Assembly (NCBI RefSeq): GCF_006345805.1
Contig: NC_043010.1
Location: 32,302,001 to 32,366,000 of the forward strand
From: Octopus sinensis
Lineage: Eukaryota
Direction of reading: 5' to 3'
DNA: 64,000 nt
Position numbers and translations under genes: made by a program. Below are positions 14,921-57,346 of this stretch, piece after piece. The notes under the pieces are model-generated. The model was given only the letters and a program-made list of their open reading frames with translations. It did no database searches and had not been told where the DNA came from. Position 1 is the first letter of the stretch. The number at the start of each line of letters is the position of its first letter.

Positions 14921-15234
14921 CCTTAACCCAGGGAACATCCTTAATTCCAGGTCAGAAGTCTTTTGACCCTGCATGCTCCTCAGGAAATACCTGCTGGCAG
15001 TCAAAGGGAAACAAGCTCTTGTTATTGTCAGAGTAGCAAAGTCTTTTCTTCTTCCATTTTCTAGAGAGGCCACTTGCTAGAGAAGCCATAGGCCAAGGGT
15101 CTGAAGAAATACTGTAAAGCTAAGCACTTTGTGGATGTGAAACTCAGGGTAACCCGCATCTATCTTTATTTATATACTCTACTGCTCTATAACTTAGAAT
15201 ATGCTTTTTGTTTTGGATTTGTGATTTACTGACG

Positions 15235-18806: not shown

Positions 18807-20071
18807 CAGGGGTTGGACAAAATAATGGAAACACCTTAAAATTTCAAACAAATTTATTTTAATATGGGATAGAACTGCTTTTGGAAGTAATTACAACATG
18901 AATTCTATGAGGTATGGACTCATACAAAGTTTGAATTGTTTCCATAGGAATTTTTGTCCATTCTTCAGCTAAAACAGTCTCCAGTTCATGTAGTGATGAT
19001 GGTGGAGGATATCGACTCCTTACTTGTTTTTCTAAAATGCACCATAAATGTTCAATAATATTGAGATCTGGGGACTGTGGTGGCCAGATAAGATGTTCAA
19101 CTTCACTCAAATATTTCTTGTGCCATTCAGTAACAACTTTAGCTGTGTGAATTGGTGCATTATCATCCTGAAAGATTGAGTTTCCTTTTGGAAACAGTTC
19201 CGCAACCATAGGATGAATTTGATTAGATAAAATGCTTGAATAGTCTTGACTATTAATTCTGCCATAAAGGGAAACTATTAGGTGAGTAGATTTTCAAGAT
19301 ATATCCCCCCAGGTCTTCACAGATCCTCTTCCATGTTTAACAGTTGGAAGAAGGCAGTCTGAGTCAAATGCTTCTTTCGGCTGTCTCCACATGTATACTC
19401 GGCTGGTGGTCAGAAATAAGATCAAAGATGACTTGTCTGAGAAAATGACATTCTTCAACTGCTCCATGGACCAATTCTGTAGGTTTTTACTCCATTTTAA
19501 ATGCTTTGCAACGTTTGTTTTTGAAAGTAGTGGTTTTCTGATTGCAGCCATCCCATTAAATCCAGCTTTGTGCAGCTCCTGGTGAACAGCTTTTTGTGGA
19601 AACTGCGTTCTTGAGGTGATCATTAAGCTCTGCAGTAATTTTGGGAGTTGTACTTTTGTGATCCTTTCTAAAAATTTGTGTATGAGTCCGACAGTCCCTA
19701 TCTGGAAGTTTTGGTTTTCTGCCGGAATTTTGTTTTGACGAGGAGGTTTTTCTATCTTTCTCGAAGGCTGTCATTACTTTTGAGACAGTACTTCTTGATA
19801 CACCAAACATTTCGACTTTTTTCATTACACTAGTGCCTGCCATACAAGCACCAACAATTTGAAAGTCTGATAGATTTGTCATTTTAATGAATTTTAATTA
19901 CCTTTCTCTGGTGATATCTGAAAAGAAACAGCAATTTTAGCAAAACATATTAAGCAACACTAATAATAAATCAAAAAACACAAAAATAAACAAGCTTTTG
20001 ACGGTTTTATAGATATTTCAAAATTATGATGCTATGAATGTAGTTATTTCCATTATTTTGTCCAACCCATG
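18807..20071 (-). mobile_element. Full-length Tc1/mariner-superfamily transposon (1265 bp), DD36E spacing
   Basis: TIR CAGGGGTTGGACAAAATAATGGAAA matches the reverse complement of the right end at 24/25; TA duplication at 18805-06 and 20072-73. Confidence 0.93.
18859..19882 (-). pseudogene. Disrupted Tc1-like transposase
   Basis: HTH (FGVSRSTVSKV), SGRKPKL, AIRKPLL, VIFSDKS and IFQDDNAPIH...WPPQSPDLNIIEHLW, split over three ORFs. Confidence 0.92.
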
Positions 20072-34612: not shown

Positions 34613-35945
34613 AACGGGAAGCTTTATGAAAATAGACAAAAGACGAAGGCAGGTTTACGGAAATAAACAAAAGACGAAGGCAGGTGGAATACAAACAAAC
34701 AATTGTATTAGTATAGCGCTCAGGAAATATAAATAAAACAAGTCTTTAACGTTTCGAGCCTACGCTCTTCAACAGAAAGATACACAAAGAAAAAAAACAC
34801 AGAAAGGAGAGAAAAAAATGCGTGCAGAGGCTAGCGAATCAACATGGCGATCTGATTTCGGCCAGAAGTCAAAGATCAAACGTGAGACGCAAGAGCGAAA
34901 TTAGGGGAGATAATAGGGTTAAATGACCCCGCTCCAACATAAGAGTGTGTGTGTGTGTATGAGAAGAGTGTGTGTGTGTGTATGAGAGAGTATTAGTGCG
35001 TATGAGAGGTCTGGACGTATGTATGTATATATGATGTGATGTGTAAAGTCGTATGGTGTAGTGTAGAGAGAGGAGATGAGGGAAGAGGGGGGGAGAGGGG
35101 AGGGGGAGAAAGAAACGGGAGAAGAGGGGGGAAGGGGGAGGAGGGGAGAGAAAGGGGAGAAGGAAGGAGAGGAGAGGAGGAGGGAGGATAGAGGGAGAGA
35201 GAAGGGGAGTGAGTGAGCAGAGAGAAAGAGGGAAGAAGGGAAGAGGAGTAGGGGTGAAAGGATAAAGGACTGAAGAGAAGTAGGGGTCGGGGGGAGGTTA
35301 GATGAGGAGGGGGGAGAGTTGAGACCAAATGGCGTATAAAAGCGAAGAGAGAAGATTAATTCCTGTTCACGGCGCAAACGGAAATCCGGATGGCCTCTGT
35401 GTAAGGACAAACCGAACACAGACAGGTGTTGCAAGGAGTGACCGGTGGAGCGGAAATGGCGTGAGACCGGTGTGTCGTTCACAAGGCGGATGTCACGATG
35501 GTGTTCCGCGAACCGGTCAGCCAAGCGGCGTCCCGTTTGTCCGATGTTACAGGGAATGGCAGAGAGAGCAAGAGACGCAATAGATAATATTGCTGGAGGT
35601 GCCGGTGAAGGAGTTGATGATGCGATAGGGTCGATGATGGGTGCCAGTGAGGAGGGTGGTGTTGGAGAGGTAATGGCAAGTACGGCAACGTGGGCGGGAG
35701 CAGGGGAACGAGCCAGGTTGGGAGGTAGGTTCAGGGAAGGAGCTATGGACCAAAAGGTCTCGAAGGTTATGGGCTCGTTTGAAAGAGGGGAGGGGTCGGT
35801 TAGGGAAGAGGTGTGAAGTGGACGGGTCGGACTGGAGATGACGGAAAGCTCGAAGAATGGTGCGTTGGAGAGGTAGGGTCGTGGGGTGGTAAGTGTGGGG
35901 AAAAGGGAGGCGGGAGACTACAGGGCGGGTTCGGGGAGAGAGAGC
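34613..35945 (-). mobile_element. 5'-truncated Neptune-like PLE: Cys linker + GIY-YIG + 3' non-coding region
   Basis: ~35790-35320 reads NLRDLLVHS...FPCSRPRCRTC...SSNIIYCVSCSLC..(frameshift)IGQTGRRLADRFAEH...PVSRHF...RLRREQELIFSL...PFGLN; (TA)n on both sides. Confidence 0.88.
34743..34780 (-). ncRNA. Minimal type-I hammerhead ribozyme motif (A6U variant)
   Basis: UCUUU-CUGUUGA-A-GAGC(GUAG)GCUC-GAAAC-GUU-AAAGA: 5-bp helix I, 4-bp helix II and palindromic ACGU helix III; same strand as the PLE ORF. Confidence 0.65.
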
Positions 35946-35954
35946 AGATACACG

Positions 35955-36003
<49 letters not shown>

Positions 36004-36061
36004 ATGTATATTTATATATATATGTATATATATATACTTTATTTAAAGCAGCAGAAAATTC

Positions 36062-36115
36062 AACAAAATCTGTTACTCTGAGTTTCTCGTTGCCGTTCAT
36101 CAGACAGTTTTTGTT
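36062..36115 (-). ncRNA. Type-I hammerhead ribozyme, intact core
   Basis: AACAAAAACUGU-CUGAUGA-ACG(GCAA)CGA-GAAACUC(A)GAGUA^ACAGAUUUUGUU: helix I 11/12 bp, GNRA-capped helix II, near-palindromic helix III; predicted cut between 36074 and 36073. Confidence 0.85.
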
Positions 36116-37268
36116 ATAATGGAACCGATATATCAATTCAATCCAGACTCTTACAAACGCTACACCTTTAAAAAATGGACTTGTTTGATTGGCCCTTTAG
36201 AAATAACGGTCAATCTTCGAGCGATAAACAAATGAGCTCAAAAATATATATGTATATATATATATTAAAAAAATTATAAAAATTATAAAATTCGAGGAAA
36301 AAACCTTACATTGAATAAAATACATATTGACGTTAATGAAGGAAATATAATTAGTACATGGAAATTAAAACACATTATAAATATTACACTGCAATACATA
36401 TTCATATTAAAGTGTACATATATATATCAACATACACAGAAGGATGCGTGCAAAAGCCATACATATACAGACGTATAAATATAAATCTAAAATATACACA
36501 CAAATGCATGCATACATATGTATACGCAATCTATCTCGCACGCAAGTTAAAATCATGGATGCTAATGTAGCGTTCCTTATTTACGGAGTAAAGTTTAAGT
36601 GAGGGGGGCGTAAAGTTGCATGCACCAGTATCAGTTAGAGAAAAAAAACGAAAGAAAGGAAGAGAGAGAAAAAAGGAACGAAAAAGGGGGAAGGAAAAAA
36701 GAAAAAGGAGGGGTGGGGAAAAACGAAATGAGAAAAATTATGTATACAAGCTGTGTAACCACGTTATTGACATATATATAGAGACAAGTATACAAACACA
36801 CAAGTTCAAATGGATACATACACCTACAGTCGTGTATGTGTGTGCTTAAGCACAAACATACGCTCACTTACACATACACAGAGACGCATGCTTATAAATA
36901 CATATCCATGGCTATACACATATTTACATCAAAATTCTAATTTTTGACAACATTGCTTTTTAAAAAAAAATGGTGAGTGCAATAATGAAAAATATACGAA
37001 AGACATATAAAATACAACACCCTATTTTGGATCATCTATAAATTAAAAATCAAAGTATTCCTATACAATACAATAACATGAAATAAACAAAGCCGAAGGT
37101 TTTTCCTAATGTATATGTAGAAATATAAACAAAATATATGCATGAGACTTTGCTATACGGAATGAAATCTGCATAGCGTGAAACAAATCCATCGTCGCGT
37201 TTACATACTAGTCCAAGAGTCAAAATCAAAATTTAAATTTCAAAAATCAAAAATACAAAATATATACA

Positions 37269-39340
37269 CTATCCATATGGTATATTTATATTTGACATTT
37301 TAAATTTGGTTGCGTGTCTACATAAGTTCATCAGCTCACTTCTTTGATTCAAAGAATTATTGTCTTGGAATAAAATATACAGTTTCTCTAATAGGCAAAG
37401 ATTGCATTTAAAATTATTCCTGTGTGCTCCATTGCTGTATAGTGCCGCTCTGTCCAGAATGCTCCATGTCACGTTGAAAGGTGGGGTTTCCTTTTCTTTT
37501 AGTTCCCAGACATATTTTGCTAGGCTGGTCCTCTTCCTATTCTCTGGGTATCTAATTGAATTTTTATGCGAATAAAATCGTGTTTTAAACGAATTTTCTG
37601 AAGCCCCTGTATATGTCTTGTATTCCGATGAACCTTCTATTTGTACCTTGGCTCTATAAACTACTCCTTTCACTAGACATTTCCCTTCTATCGGACAGGA
37701 GTTTTCATTTTTGCAATTGCATTTCTTAATGGGCTCGGCACCATGTTTAATCTCAATCAGATTCCTATTATGCTGGCTAATGTAAGAGGCGAAATTTCTG
37801 CAACATGAATAGCTAACCTTCAGGGTTTTTCTATTAAATATCCTATAGAATTTATGGCCCTGCTTAAAATGCTTAGAGACTAATCTCAAAAATTCCTTAC
37901 CTATATTAGTCTTTACGGCCAAATTGAAAGCCGGGTTGAACCACAAAACTTTCCTGGTCCTAGTTCTTCGTGCAGCATTATTATCAGCATTAAGCTGGCT
38001 GTATTGGATCTTCTCAGAGAATCCACTATTCTTTAATGCGCTATCGTAATAAGGTGCAGCATTATGGAATGCTGCCTCGTCCGAAGAAATTGATGATATT
38101 CTTCTACCTACATTGCTGACTAAGTTCCTAAAAGTATATTAGCAAAGTTCGAATCTTTGCTAATATACGATAGCTTTTCATTGGGCTTACGGAAAGGTTT
38201 AAATCTATCCGACCTTACATTAAAATTTACGTCTAAAAAATCTACACTATTCAGGTTAGCATCTATTGTAACCCGTAAGCCCATCCTTTGAAAGAAAGCA
38301 ATAAGGTCCTTCCTAAGTCTATCTGATTCATGGCCGTTTAGATTATGCGTGGCTATAAGGCCGTCATCCCTATATAAACCTGCATCTATAAATGGGAATT
38401 CTATTTTCAGATTATGAAGAATAAAGGCTCCTATGAGCATACATAACTCAGCCCCGTCGTATGCCCCCATCGGTACATCGAAAAGAGAATCCTCACTCTT
38501 CTTAATCCAGGTGGAATCCTCGAAAAAAAGAAGCTATTTCCTCGCATGCATAATAATATCAATTTCCGAGCTATCGATGCTGACATACTGCTTGGCGAAG
38601 TCCAATGCCCTTAGGAACAACGTCCTAGATATTGACGGGTAAAAGTCAATAATGTCGAATTGTGTAAAACTGCAAATATTCTTATAGCTAATACCTTTAA
38701 ACCACTCTATGACTGACTTACTATTCTTCCAAATTCTCAAGTATACTTCACTATCTAACTTAGCTAAAATACGGTCCAAAATATTTTTGCTAATAATTCC
38801 TATTTCAGTTTTAGCCGGATTTATCAATCTACATTTGGGGTTTCTATAAAAATTGGCTTTATGGTCTTTTAGAGTAATAAAAGCTGGTCGTGGTGAAAGA
38901 TATTCAATCCTATCGCTAATCTTAAGATCGTTAGCTATTCCTCTTGCTTCTAAGTTCACCTCTTTGTATATATTTGTGTTATCTTTTTTGTATGTATCTG
39001 TGACACTATTCGAAATCAGGCGTTTATAAACGTCCTTATCAAGTGCATATAAGTTCCTTGTTTTATCAGAATTAACGATCTTATTCGAGTTGTAAATCTC
39101 CTTAATTTTTTCTCTCATATTTCTCTGTAATTGGTTGCTATATTTGCGGAATTTAATTTTCCTAATAAGTTCGAAAAGGTCTTCCTCGAAGGCTTCTAAT
39201 TCCGGAATAGGTGGCGGATTTCTGGGAGATTTAAGTCCATATTTGTTTCCGTCTGTAACGAACTTGGTGTGAGTGACTCTCTTGTACTTTCGGGGTACAA
39301 GAAAGCAATCACTAGCCGTTGCTTTAATAATCCAGATTCT
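37269..39340 (-). pseudogene. PLE reverse transcriptase + GIY-YIG endonuclease ORF with one nonsense codon and one frameshift
   Basis: CRLINPAK, FDIIDFYPSI, PMGAYDGAELC, YRDDGL, FLDV, WFNPAF, CNC..CP, GVVYRA..YTGASENSFKTRFYSH and CNLCLLE; TAG at 38534-36 (HARK*LLF) and a frameshift near 38120-38150. Confidence 0.93.
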
Positions 39341-39499
39341 CTACCAGTCAGAAACAACAAGACGCAGACGTAAATAATATATATACTACTTTATTCTCTA
39401 ATGTGGTAACAGTAACAATAAGTGGTTATCTGATGTCCTTGGTTCTGGGCGCGCAAGGCTGAAAGTTAATGGATTGTAATATTTACAATGTTCAGCCGC

Positions 39500-39820
39500 T
39501 AAAACAGAACGGGTTAAAGATGGCGTCGAACAATGGAGACGATGTTGGTCTGCAACAATTTGGTTAAAGGCCTTTTGGTAAGGACTGCTAGAAGCAAGTT
39601 CGAACGGAGAGAAAATATATTGTGACCGTCGCCTTCAGTCGCTGCCGTCCCAAGTCACCGCTGCTGCTGCCAGCGGTCAAACGTTCTACGACCCCCTTGC
39701 CTTGGCTAACTACCACGTAGGCAAAAGGGTCGTGCTTCCGGTGGTTCGCGCATGCGCGAGAGGGCCCTTCCCCGCACGCGCGAAACAGAAATGGACGGTG
39801 CGCGCGCGCACCGTTATAGG
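39500..39820. promoter_or_regulatory. CpG-island-like putative internal promoter of the PLE
   Basis: YY1-like AAGATGGCG (39517-25), ETS-like CTTCCGG (39735-41), NRF1-type palindrome TCGCGCATGCGCGA (39746-59) and a 20-bp palindrome (39795-39814). Confidence 0.5.
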
Positions 39821-40136
39821 ATCACTACACGTCTGTTTTCTGTTTAGTATCAAAGAAGAAGGTTTTCCATCTCAATCTTCGAATAAACTCTTCCGTTTTC
39901 TCTATAAGACCTTTGAGATATTGCTTCCGTGCAGGGATAGGTATATTTTTCTGAGAAAAATCCAGCGGGTAAAGTTCCATCTTTTTCAGCTGTTTGTTCT
40001 TCCTACTTGTGCAGAGTCACTCAAACTTTTATAAGGAGCGGGTTACACCGGAGTAAACACATAAATGTGAAACAAGGTGGAAAAAAGAGTACTCAAATAC
40101 CAGTGGTAGAGTAATATATATATATATATATATATA

Positions 40137-51754: not shown

Positions 51755-52765
51755 CATCATTTAATGTCCACTTTCCATGCTAGCATGGATTAGACAGTTT
51801 GACAGGGACTGGTATGCCAAAGAGCTGTACCAGGTTCCAGTATGATTTGGCATGGTTTCCACAGCTGGATGCCCTTCCTAATGCCAACCACTCTGAGTGT
51901 GTAATGGGCACTTTTTACGTGCCACCAGCATGGGTGCCATTTACATTAACACTAGTAGTGTTCATGACTATGGTTTCATGGGTGCCATTTACATGACACT
52001 GGCAATGGTCCAACATTTGAGGCCCAATGTTTGATGATCATGCTTCACCACCTTATCCCATGTCTTCCTGTGTCTTCCTCTTCCACAGGTTCCCTCGACA
52101 GTTAGAGATCAGCACTTCTTTACACAACTGTTCTTGCTCATATGCATCATATGACCATACCAACATATTTATCTCTCTTGCTTCTCATATCTGATGTCTC
52201 TTATGCCCAGTTTTTCTCTGAGATACCTATGCTCTGTTGCTCATGCACACTTGCATTTCACATCTAATGAAGTATACTAGTTTCATTTCTTTCAAGCCTT
52301 CACATGTCCTCAGCAGTCACAGCCTATGGTTCACTGCTGTGGAGCATGGCAGTTCACACATAGGCATCATACAATATGCCTTTCAATCTGATGGGGAGGC
52401 CCTTTGTTACTGACAGAAGTGGAAGCTCTCTGAACTTTGCTCAGCCTATTCTTATATTCTAGCAGCTACACTCTCAGAGCATCCACCTCCACTGCTGAAC
52501 TGGTCACATAGATAATGGAAGCTATCAACTACTTATAGTATTCCCCCTGGCGTTTCATGGAGTCTATTTTCATTACATTTCTAGAATTTATTGTACCTGT
52601 ACATCTGCCACACATGAAGACTATTTTCCCAGTTAACCTTCCTATGATATTGCTGCATCTCTTACGTATCCATAACTTGCACCGGGTACATCTTATGGAG
52701 TTTCTACCTATGCCTTTTCTACATATTGAGCAGGGCCATCTACATGACGGGATTTGTGACTTGTC

Positions 52766-52770
<5 letters not shown>
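51755..52770 (-). mobile_element. RTE LINE 3' portion with PHD-like Cys-rich motif
   Basis: WPCSICRKGIGRNSIRCTRCKLWIRKRCS...FMCGRC, then RIRIG*AKFRELPLL-like frames and the shared tail. Confidence 0.8.
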
Positions 52771-52841
<71 letters not shown>

Positions 52842-53103
52842 TCTCTTCTACTTGTTTCAGCCATGTGTTTCAGGATCTAATAAAATTGAAATATTTTGAT
52901 AACAAAGGCATCAAGGTAGAGTTGCGGATAACATATCTTGTATTAACAATGTGTACAGACAGTCATGTACTAAGGCATATACAAATTTGTCTTTCCTGTT
53001 ACAATTACATCCACATGTATAGACCAAATACATCCAACATATACGTCCTATACTATTTGTGTGAAAAATCCTAAATGTTAAATTTTCTTTCTTTTTTTTC
53101 CAC

Positions 53104-54555: not shown

Positions 54556-57346
54556 TTGACAAACAATATTTTGTAAAAATAATTCTTTTAAACAATGGAA
54601 AGAAAAACAATCAGCAAATTCCAAATAAAAATTTTAATATCAAATGAAAAATAGTTTTATTGAAGAAATTTTATCATTCACATTGATTTTATTGTACAAA
54701 GATGATACAACAATACAATGTGAATGACTAGTTAGGAAGGCGCCACCATTTTCACTTATTATTGTGAAGACACCTGAATAGACTGAAACTACACAGATAT
54801 GATGAGTAATCTAAACCAGACGAATATCAAGCAGCAGAACATCAGAAATCAGTCTTGCCACTTTGGTATATGCAAATTAGAAGTTTCCAGTTCTCTACAG
54901 CTACTAGATCCGATGTGTATTCATGTTTCTCTGGGACTGGTCAAGTGATGTAGCTACCTCTGAAGAAACCTCTGTAAGAGTCAAAAGTCAATTAAGAATG
55001 TTCATTTGATTTCAGTCTGCAGTTAAATAGGTAAAAATAATGTCTGTGTGTCCACTATGTAGGTTTACATTTAATAATGTTTGTACACATTCTTCAAAAT
55101 TCTGGGTGTTTTTATGACTTATTCAGCTGAGGGATGTGATGAGGTGGCTAGTTTTTGTAGTGCGGGTGGGTGAAAGCTTAAATTTGCCTAATTTGCCTAT
55201 TGGGGTTAGTGGGGTGGAGGGAAAGGAAAGAGAGAAGCAGGGAGTGGAAAAGAAAGAATGGGATTGTTTGAGGGTGCTAGTTGAATATGTATGTATGTAT
55301 GTGTCAGGTGATGTGTAAGTGTGTGTGGGGGTGTGTACATGTGCAGAGAGTAGATTTGTGCAGATATGTGTGTGTTAACATCACAGTATATGTGTGTGTG
55401 GTGGGGTGAAAAGTGGACAAATTGGTATACATATGTGTGCATCACAAGGTAGGCAGGAGACAAGATGGTAGAAGAAACAAGATGTTTAGAATGTCAGAGG
55501 TACAAATGTATGGGAAAGGGGAGTATGACAGGAAGGAGAGTGAGTGTGGAACCGACCTCCTGGTGTGGGTGTCTTAAGGGTATGTGCATGGGTGTGTGCA
55601 TGGTATGGGACGAAATGTAAGGTAGTGGGAGGTGTGAGATGTATGGAGTAAAGTGGCAAAGGGAGTGGAAATGGAGACAAAGGGAAGTGGTGTGTAGCGA
55701 TGGGGCAGATGAAAAGAGAAAAGTTAGAAAAACTGAGAAGAATTCAGACTGAAAGGTGTATTTGTTTGGAGAAAAAAGTGAGCTTTTGATCCTTCCAGAG
55801 GTGAGTAGTGGGAGAGCCAGTGGTGTTGGTCATTTTGAAGGCCGAAAAATTGTGTTTGTATAAGTGATGCATGTGTGTGTATGTGTCTTTGTGAAACAGA
55901 AAGATGTGAGAAGGTGTTTTGGTTAGTATTGTGTCTCTTCTTGCAATCAGTCATAACATGCCTGAAAATCCTGTGCATCCACATGTGGAATTCAGAGTAA
56001 GCAAGAGGTTGACTGAACCAAAATAAAATATATTATGATATATCATAGTAAAGAATTGAACCAGTGTGTGAGTTATTAATATTGGCATAATGACTCTCTC
56101 TCTCCCTAGACACCACAAAATATGGTGTTAATGTCATAGTCATTCTTTAAAACAGTAATACAGTGGTAGAAATGGTAGCATATATATGGGAAAATATTTT
56201 ATGATATTTAGTAGTATCCCTTAAATTGTATGGAGAAAGTTAGTGAGACAATTAGCCATTGTTCTCTGGATGCTGAAGATTTGGCACAGGTGACTGAACA
56301 AGTTAGTGATGAGATGTTTTAATACTGGAGGCAAATATATGCATGTGTGCAAAGAAATATACGCATACAGAATAACAGAGGGAGAGGAGGGAAAGAGATG
56401 ACACACACATATAAAAATGACTAGATGCTCATGCATATAATCAGAGAGAGAGAGAGAGAGAGAACAAGAGAAATCTCTGATGGCAAATAAGACAGAGTTG
56501 AATAAGCAGTGCCAAAATAGCTGTGCCAGAACGTCAATACCCCTTTCGTCTTACTGAGGCCAAATGTTAATTATTGTTGTTTTTGCTGTTGTTGTTGGGC
56601 AATCCCAGGTCAGATGTAATCTAGCAAACCTGTGATCGACTATGTGCTAATCGTGATTATCCCAACTTTTATTCAAATGCTGTGTATCTAAGACTAAATT
56701 GTCCAAAAGTATGCTCACAATTTTTATGCCTGTGTGGTTGAGATGGGATGAAGGTTGGCTGCTTTTTCTAAAGGCTAAGTGACCTTCTATATGGGCTGTG
56801 GATGATGGTTGTAGCAGTCTGATAGAACCAAGGAAACTGTTTCCATTAGTCTGCAGAATTCTGCTTTAAGCATGCCATCTAACCTGTCATAACATTTTTA
56901 TTTTTCGGAATTTTCAGATATTTTTTGAAAATTTGTATTCTACACATGGGAATTCATGTGACTATGAAAAAAAATAATCTTTTTTAATTCCTTTTTTCTC
57001 ATGTATGAACCGACGATAAAGAAGTTATCATCTGCTAAATATTTAGAGTCAATTCACTTTTCTTTTCACAAAGACGTTTCAAGTCAACGTTGAAGGTGAA
57101 ATACCTTATTAATTTCGTTTTTATTATTTATAAAATTATAATCACTCATTCATCTATTCCAAAGTTAGAAAGATAGATTTCTAAAGGGCAGATTGCTATT
57201 ACTTAATATCTTATCCCTTTTGGTGTTGTAGTTTTCCTTCGTGTTCTGCTCACAAAACCATCTAAAGTTTAAATTGAAGGTGAAGTCCCTTACTATATTT
57301 ATTGAAAAATATTCAACAATTACATTAATTTATTAATTTACCCTTT

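What the first reader, a model, noticed from the sequence alone, without database searches (positions are those of the whole stretch)
36062..36115. Intact-looking hammerhead at the 3' extremity of the near-complete PLE
Seen: full CUGAUGA/GAAA core, GUA cleavage triplet, 11/12-bp helix I, GCAA-capped helix II and helix III ACUC-A-GAGU, about 25 nt from the (TA)n boundary and next to AATAAA on the same strand. Known: a 1-nt helix III loop implies dimeric cleavage, as described for PLE minimal hammerheads. Inference: self-cleavage helps define the element RNA end.
Basis: partly seen in the sequence, partly recalled or inferred. Interest (0 to 1): 0.7.

Follow-up and report, generated by a model that had tools for sequence, protein, structure and literature searches.

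The report
Hammerhead ribozyme in Hydra-clade Penelope element
The flagged bases are a real copy of the small self-cutting RNA motif already published for this group of jumping genes; here it stands alone in a broken element, is predicted to cut poorly and only in pairs, and its cut site lies 37 bases inside the element's end, so the cut likely does not set that end.

Summary
Observation confirmed on the minus strand: CUGAUGA/GAAA core, GUA triplet (cut 36074/36073), 11/12-bp helix I, ACUC-A-GAGU helix III, AATAAA, (TA)n. The host element fits the Hydra clade of Penelope-like elements (RWK, DKT, CxCX5C, no CCHH, (TA)n flanks). Craig et al. 2021 list 3'-terminal hammerheads for this clade, one with this exact helix III. 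This copy is full length but dead (solo LTR, stop, frameshift) and has no second hammerhead. 10 of 16 protein-selected relatives carry a hammerhead 86-218 nt after the endonuclease match. Public runs show a high-copy family: the core is invariant except U4C (13-57% of depth), and position 11.1 varies. Copies extend 37 nt (41 nt in a related family; 82 of 92 copies, none ending at the cut) beyond the cut site, so cleavage does not set the copied RNA's 3' end unless it is re-ligated. One lead: in the related family 46 of 58 copies start just 5' of the ribozyme. The scan has reported similar Penelope hammerheads in other genomes. Known kind; low interest.

The parts
36062..36115 (-). Type I hammerhead motif with dimer-type helix III
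   Evidence: sequence; descriptor; model R1 38.5 bits
36104..36115 (-). Helix I, 5' strand (pairs with 36062-36073, 11 of 12)
   Evidence: the mismatch at 36108/36069 stays a mismatch (A·A or A·G) in family copies
36097..36103 (-). Core C3-A9 (CUGAUGA); U4 = 36102 is C in 13-57% of family depth
36087..36096 (-). Helix II: two pairs, GCAA loop, A10.1·A11.1 mismatch (11.1 is U in 11-23% and G in 19-38% of family depth)
36075..36086 (-). G12-A14 and helix III near-palindrome ACUC-A-GAGU (36083-36075)
   Evidence: no variant at 5% or more
36073..36074 (-). Predicted cleavage site after the GUA triplet (untested)
   Evidence: hammerhead numbering applied
36037..36073 (-). 37-nt terminal segment beyond the cut, including AATAAA at 36043-36038; present in family copies
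35955..36036 (.). (TA)n/(TG)n target microsatellite, 3' boundary
36037..37268 (-). 3' UTR, about 1.2 kb; C3 lies 1166 nt after the stop, against 86-218 nt after the endonuclease match in relatives
   Evidence: family cover shown only for 36038-36630
37269..38138 (-). RT thumb, CxCX5C linker and GIY-YIG-type endonuclease with CxxC and CxH; frameshift against the upstream piece near 38130
38123..39253 (-). RT core (DKT, YRDD) with an in-frame TAG at 38536-38534
39254..39829 (.). 576-bp solo-LTR-like insertion (TGTA...TACA) with a 4-bp GACG target duplication, interrupting the ORF
39831..39980 (-). ORF start (ATG 39980) with RWK motif
39981..40115 (-). 5' UTR, beginning with a motif like the one that follows the 3' end in relatives; no upstream pseudo-LTR
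   Evidence: by-eye likeness; no second copy of the 3' end
40116..40136 (.). (TA)n, 5' boundary

Best explanation
This is the 3'-terminal type I hammerhead motif of a dead, full-length, single-unit Penelope-like retroelement that fits the Hydra clade, and it is predicted to cut only slowly and only when paired with a second copy, which this insertion lacks. Shown: the motif, its place 37 nt inside the element end, the same arrangement in relatives, a high-copy family, and no partner in the window. Inferred mechanism: active elements are transcribed from tandems, where an upstream 3' end (pseudo-LTR) lies about 170-220 nt before the next ATG. Two hammerheads then swap helix III and may cut, probably with help from the element's protein, and the upstream cut would trim the 5' end of the unit RNA. 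Reverse transcription likely starts at a fixed site about 37 nt downstream of the cut on RNA whose 3' hammerhead is still whole, which is why copies keep the full motif. This lone copy is likely inert as a monomer.
For: Clade motifs RWK, DKT, CNCX5C, CNLC and CRH, and no Cys between VVY and YTG, match PMC8557442 section 11. That paper's File S2 lists sense-strand hammerheads, nearly all near the 3' end, for Hydra families, Penelope-3_HM with actc-a-gagt. 10 of 16 protein-selected loci (10 of the 13 with >=400 nt downstream) have a same-strand hammerhead 86-218 nt after the endonuclease match. In 4 of 16 the hammerhead is followed about 180-220 nt later by the next ORF start; L269 has two identical ones around a 728-aa ORF. 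The predicted monomer fold buries the core (-10.2 vs -4.8 to -5.5 kcal/mol), while the 54-mer homodimer folds as a double hammerhead (-22.6). Copies run past the cut. For an anole Poseidon element, the ribozyme needed protein, core mutants did not change insertion, and no reads ended at the cut (PMC11167929). Minimal hammerheads of Penelope elements were inactive as monomers and weak as dimers (PMC4209133).
Against: No cleavage or RNA-end data: only contigs could be laid. The double-hammerhead minimum is fragile. It is lost or distorted in 3 of 3 longer contexts and in 4 of 5 natural-allele versions, and it is the minimum in 3 of 24 relatives. Within this family the motif is not more conserved than its flank: 4 variable sites in 54 nt against 3 substitutions and 3 indel rows in the next 120 nt. 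U4C is common. The link between the hammerhead and this ORF over 36630-37269 was not checked with reads, and the UTR is about 1 kb longer than in relatives. A cut-and-religated circle would give the same genomic ends. The anole data come from another clade.
Confidence: 0.6

Rival explanations
1. Both hammerheads of a tandem cut, the unit RNA is ligated into a circle, and reverse transcriptase starts at +37 and runs across the junction (the model of Cervera and De la Pena). Cleavage would then define both ends of an RNA intermediate without marking the DNA copies.
For: Proposed in PMC4209133. It is compatible with copies that run past the cut and with tandems in relatives.
Against: In the anole element core mutants did not change insertion and no reads began or ended at the cut. 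This family tolerates U4C in 13-57% of depth and a 2-bp helix II.
Confidence: 0.18
2. In this family catalysis is dispensable or being lost, and the fold works mainly as a landmark for the element's protein: it sets the start of reverse transcription downstream and makes it stop or switch template at the fold's 5' edge.
For: U4C and a variable 11.1 in the family; U4C lowers activity in vitro (PMC3088659). 0 of 86 structured relatives have A·A at 10.1/11.1. 46 of 58 whole-core copies of a related family start within 15 nt of C3, a rate about 30 times that of the next 100 nt. There are 14 head-to-head pairs in 48 loci. The best-supported loose ends here cluster at 36106-36118 (9 of the 24 rows shown, of 238).
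Against: All other core positions, helix III and the triplet have no variant at 5% or more. Two-pair helices II occur in active ribozymes. The related copies were selected for a whole core. AT-rich or palindromic microhomology could explain the breakpoints. Contig depth overcounts fragmented regions.
Confidence: 0.17
3. One reading: the cut at 36074/36073 makes the 3' end of the linear element RNA that is copied.
For: The cut site is near the element end and the core is canonical in this copy.
Against: The copy itself and the family keep the 37 nt beyond the cut. 0 of 92 related copies end within 9 nt of the cut. Cutting would remove the sequence where copying begins.
Confidence: 0.04
4. Chance match in AT-rich DNA.
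For: 7 of 600 simulated windows hold a site of this quality; no Rfam hit; the fold z-score is only -1.6.
Against: Same place and same helix III type as in relatives chosen by protein alone and as in the published table.
Confidence: 0.01

Closest known systems
Hammerheads of Hydra-clade Penelope-like elements (Craig et al. 2021, PMC8557442; seen: passages, section 11, supplement parts 1-2 and searched rows)
   Same: Sense strand, 3'-terminal, type I; 4-bp + 1-nt helix III (Penelope-3_HM has actc-a-gagt; Hydra-2_aMil actc-g-gagt); (TA)n insertion; RWK/DKT/CxCX5C protein. An Octopus family (Hydra-1_Obim, 'no pLTR') is listed.
   Different: Helix II here has 2 bp with A·A at its base, against 3 or more pairs in all 26 Hydra-clade rows of File S2. 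Helix I is longer. The 3' UTR is about 1.2 kb and the unit about 3.5 kb (clade generally under 3 kb). It is not Hydra-1_Obim, whose hammerhead and length (2507 bp) differ.
Minimal and small-palindromic-helix-III hammerheads of metazoan Penelope elements (Cervera and De la Pena 2014, PMC4209133; seen: parts 1-2 of 4). Lunse et al. 2016 not held; known only through reviews PMC6765202 and PMC6466107 (passages)
   Same: Unstable palindromic helix III, predicted dimer cleavage, many dispersed single motifs from truncated copies, opposite-strand pairs.
   Different: The conserved G10.1-C11.1 pair and the long helix II described there are absent.
PAc hammerhead of the anole Poseidon element (Frangieh et al. 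2024, PMC11167929; seen: passages and part 2 of the main text)
   Same: Reverse transcription starts downstream of the ribozyme; copies keep it.
   Different: Another clade; that ribozyme overlaps the ORF start, this one is in the 3' UTR.
Non-LTR retrozymes (bioRxiv 10.64898/2026.07.22.740005; seen: part 1 of 5 and passages)
   Same: Type I hammerhead derived from Penelope termini.
   Different: No short tandem array here; the motif is attached to a coding element.

Membership tests
Type I hammerhead ribozyme | Core CUGANGA...GAAA...UH with A15.1-U16.1 | tested here: met
Type I hammerhead ribozyme | Helix I closing the two ends | tested here: met
   11 of 12 pairs; all 6 counted pairs show two-sided changes among 24 relatives, which were pre-filtered for pairing
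Type I hammerhead ribozyme | Helix II with a paired 10.1-11.1 (usually G-C; U·U tolerated) | tested here: not met
   A·A plus 2 bp; A-U in 11-23% of family depth; 2-bp helices II and U·U are known. This lowers the claim of activity, not of descent
Type I hammerhead ribozyme | Site-specific self-cleavage | not testable with these tools
   no assay; contigs cannot show RNA ends
Type I hammerhead ribozyme | Score above an Rfam hammerhead threshold | tested here: not met
Dimer-type Penelope hammerhead | Short (near-)palindromic helix III | tested here: met
Dimer-type Penelope hammerhead | Sense strand, in the terminal region of a Penelope element | tested here: met
   ORF link across 36630-37269 inferred
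Dimer-type Penelope hammerhead | Second copy in cis (pseudo-LTR or tandem) | tested here: not met
   no second family copy in the window; met in 4 of 16 relatives
Dimer-type Penelope hammerhead | Conserved across family copies | tested here: met
   invariant at the 5% level except U4, 11.1 and two helix I sites, but no more conserved than the flank
Hydra-clade PLE | C-terminal GIY-YIG-type endonuclease without CCHH; CxxC and CxH around E and N | tested here: met
Hydra-clade PLE | RWK, DKT and CxCX5C motifs | tested here: met
Hydra-clade PLE | GxKF/Y motif not conserved | tested here: inconclusive
   GNKY and GLKS both occur near 39250; not aligned to the published motif
Hydra-clade PLE | Insertion into (TA)n | tested here: met
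   both flanks
Hydra-clade PLE | Placement in the RT tree | not tested
   no tree built; likeness to Hydra-1_Obim and Hydra-1_Ajap proteins seen by eye only
Nematis-clade PLE | CX2-5CxxC linker, DKG, CCHH | tested here: not met
Naiad PLE | N-terminal endonuclease | tested here: not met
   endonuclease is C-terminal
Non-LTR retrozyme | Non-coding tandem units each with a hammerhead | tested here: not met

The most novel reading that the evidence does not exclude
In Hydra-clade elements the hammerhead fold is a positioning device for the element's own reverse transcriptase. Copying starts about 40 nt downstream of the cut site and stops or flips at the 5' edge of helix I, so genomes fill with 80-90-nt ribozyme-only stubs and head-to-head ribozyme pairs. 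In this family the fold is kept while catalysis is being lost (U4C, 2-bp helix II).
Probability: 0.17. Interest if true: 0.55.

Novelty: new member of a known kind. Interest (0 to 1): 0.22.

Why it matters
As flagged it adds one family to a published table. The open question in the field is what Penelope hammerheads do (stated as unclear in PMC8557442). The evidence here bears on it in two modest ways: copies do not end at the cut site, and a very abundant family tolerates a weakening core change and a minimal helix II. If the clustering of 5' ends at the ribozyme edge survives an unbiased census, it would point to a non-catalytic role that can be tested in the existing in vitro system.

Tried and rejected
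No whole genome is held for this window, so no copy census was possible. Rfam: no hammerhead. Pfam: no family for the 6 element pieces. Viral contigs: 17 pattern matches, none passing the structure filter. No RNA holder is listed on record; X8 is only guessed to be RNA, so nothing is said on expression. Table 6 is empty, but contigs cannot show RNA ends; bins without cover (36238-36277, 36478-36517) are skipped repeats. My first clade calls, Naiad and then Nematis, were dropped on the motifs; notebook entries 1-3 still say Nematis. The monomer misfold (core CUGA pairing with UCAG of helix III) is in 23 of 24 relatives but follows from the search pattern, so it is not claimed as a conserved switch. 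Pair counts lean towards the structure because rows were pre-filtered; 15 of the 39 distinct motifs were left out by eye as near-duplicates or likely bacterial chance matches. AATAAA as a conserved signal was rejected (2 of 10). Depth ratios are not used as copy numbers. Lunse et al. 2016 is not held, so its constructs and rates were not seen. Earlier findings by sequence and by place gave nothing. Two paper searches for truncation or template switching at Penelope hammerheads (listings only) showed no paper on it; supplements of PMC4209133 and PMC11167929 were not read and may bear on this.

Full report
The observation. On the minus strand, 36115-36062 reads as a type I hammerhead. Helix I has 11 of 12 pairs. 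The core is CUGAUGA at 36103-36097 and GAA at 36086-36084. Helix III is ACUC-A-GAGU at 36083-36075 and the triplet GUA ends at 36074. AATAAA is at 36043-36038 and the (TA)n starts at 36036. What was left out is that helix II is A-CG-GCAA-CG-A: two pairs and an A·A mismatch where most hammerheads have G10.1-C11.1. It is the only descriptor hit in the window. Simulated windows give such a site in about 1% of cases (2 of 150; 7 of 600), so the motif alone is not proof. Rfam has no hammerhead hit here.

The element. Upstream on the same strand lies a Penelope-like ORF in four pieces from ATG 39980 to the stop at 37269; all four pieces match related loci in order. It is broken by a 576-bp solo-LTR-like insert at 39829-39254 with a GACG duplication, a TAG at 38536-38534 and a frameshift near 38130. 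It carries RWK, DKT, CNCX5C, CNLC and CRH, and no cysteines between VVY and YTG. Both ends sit in (TA)n. These are the features given for the Hydra clade in PMC8557442 section 11. No tree was built. The unit is about 3.5 kb without the insert. Its 5' end (40112-40087) resembles, by eye, a motif found 39-51 nt after the cut site in relatives, where the next unit begins. So this looks like one whole unit without an upstream pseudo-LTR. No second copy of its 3' end is in the window. The host was not determined; microsatellite content and likeness to an Octopus family suggest a cephalopod, which is my inference only.

Relatives. A pattern from this site found 130 matches in 120 metagenome loci. 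86 had helices I and II, and 8 of those lay 87-447 nt after a related endonuclease on the same strand, against 0 of the 44 unstructured ones. At 10.1/11.1 the 86 had G-C 64, U·U 15, G·U 3, C·U 2, G·A 2 and A·A none. A test free of that pattern: of 16 loci chosen by protein alone, 13 have at least 400 nt downstream, and 10 of these have a same-strand hammerhead 86-218 nt after the match. One of the 10 (L267) is a contig already used in the model; L260, L261 and L271 are the misses. Their helices III are near-palindromes of several sequences. In L259, L262, L265 and L269 the hammerhead is followed about 180-220 nt later by the next ORF start. File S2 of PMC8557442 lists 26 Hydra-clade rows, one with exactly actc-a-gagt. 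The arrangement is therefore published.

The family in public runs. 20 of 24 listed runs, under four organism codes, hold the stretch. Four were laid on 36038-36630, as contigs only: 5598, 1696, 1311 and 174 contigs. Depth is highest over 36038-36097 and falls by three or more orders of magnitude towards 36630, as for a high-copy, 5'-truncated family; the figures are not copy numbers. Differences at 5% or more within the motif: 36069 (A to G, 48-64%; still a mismatch), 11.1 (U 11-23%, G 19-38%), U4 to C (57, 21, 13, 37%) and 36114 (G, 93-100%). The rest of the core, helix III, the triplet and the two helix II pairs show none. So the weak helix II is a family trait, not decay of this copy. But the flank is as conserved (3 substitutions and 3 indel rows in 120 nt), so this is no sign of selection. 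PMC3088659 says U4C lowers activity in vitro yet allowed viroid infection, and that 2-bp helices II and U·U occur.

Folding. The monomer is predicted to pair the core with helix III (-10.2 against -4.8 to -5.5 kcal/mol for the hammerhead). The 54-mer homodimer minimum is a double hammerhead (-22.6, 2.2 below two monomers). That result is fragile: it does not hold in three longer contexts, holds in 1 of 5 allele versions, and in 3 of 24 relatives. The dimer reading rests more on the 1-nt loop, the conserved near-palindromy and published assays (PMC4209133; reviews) than on these energies.

Does the cut define the RNA end? Not the 3' end of what is copied. This copy and its family keep 37 nt beyond the cut. 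In a 77-match related family conservation stops sharply at +41. 82 of 92 alignments run to +41, which was also the end of the reference, and none stops within 9 nt of the cut. For an anole element, core mutants did not change insertion and the ribozyme needed protein. In a tandem the upstream cut would instead fall about 170 nt before the ATG and could trim the 5' end (inferred). A cut-and-ligated circle would leave the same genomic ends and is not excluded.

A lead. In the related family 46 of 58 whole-core copies begin within 15 nt of C3. That is 0.054 per nt against 0.0018 per nt over the next 100 nt, with 56 of 59 flanks distinct. There are 14 head-to-head pairs in 48 loci. Here, 9 of the 24 loose-end rows shown (of 238) lie at 36106-36118, and two read as an inverted copy of the ribozyme. 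Selection for a whole core and microhomology are untested alternatives. Single and opposite-strand motifs from truncated copies were already noted; two searches showed no paper on the breakpoint itself.

Verdict. A real, published kind of motif in a dead copy of an apparently undescribed Hydra-like family. The dimer reading is plausible but untested, and the 3'-end-defining role is not supported. Earlier scan notes report similar cases in other genomes. Interest 0.22.

Noticed in passing
window 15091-15161 (+): A second hammerhead-like site: CUGAAGA, a long bulged helix II, helix III ACUC-A-GGGU, triplet GUA and a 4-bp helix I, between two microsatellites. It scores only 11.8 bits, E about 1, with a poor fold z-score; perhaps a worn end of another family.
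   Followed up: partly
window 34749-34770 (-): Hammerhead-like core with U in place of C3 near the 3' end of the neighbouring Penelope fragment; single in the window.
   Followed up: partly
window 35950-35300 (-): 5'-truncated second Penelope-like element (GIY-YIG-type region with CxxC motifs, frameshifted) directly beyond the same microsatellite; the Neptune/Poseidon label is recalled, not tested.
   Followed up: no
window 39254-39829: 576-bp GC-richer solo-LTR-like insert with a 4-bp target duplication; family not identified.
   Followed up: partly
window 18862-19770 (-): Tc1/mariner transposase remnant (DDE_3 E 2e-13, HTH_Tnp_Tc3_2 E 4e-6).
   Followed up: no
window 52532-52876 (-) and 55727-56032 (-): Weak PHD-finger and FERM_N matches below the Pfam cut-offs; may be exons or chance.
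   Followed up: no
L017, L020, L021, L258-L273: Several bacterial genome bins contain Penelope-like elements with (TA)n and hammerheads, likely animal DNA contamination.
   Followed up: no
window 36096-36087 (-): Helix II matches 9 of 10 letters of the loop 2 cap listed for Penelope-2_NV, and all 10 in the 11.1U allele; it may be a helix II that lost its basal stem, or coincidence.
   Followed up: no
L266, L272: Several different hammerhead families clustered within a few kb, in both orientations.
   Followed up: no
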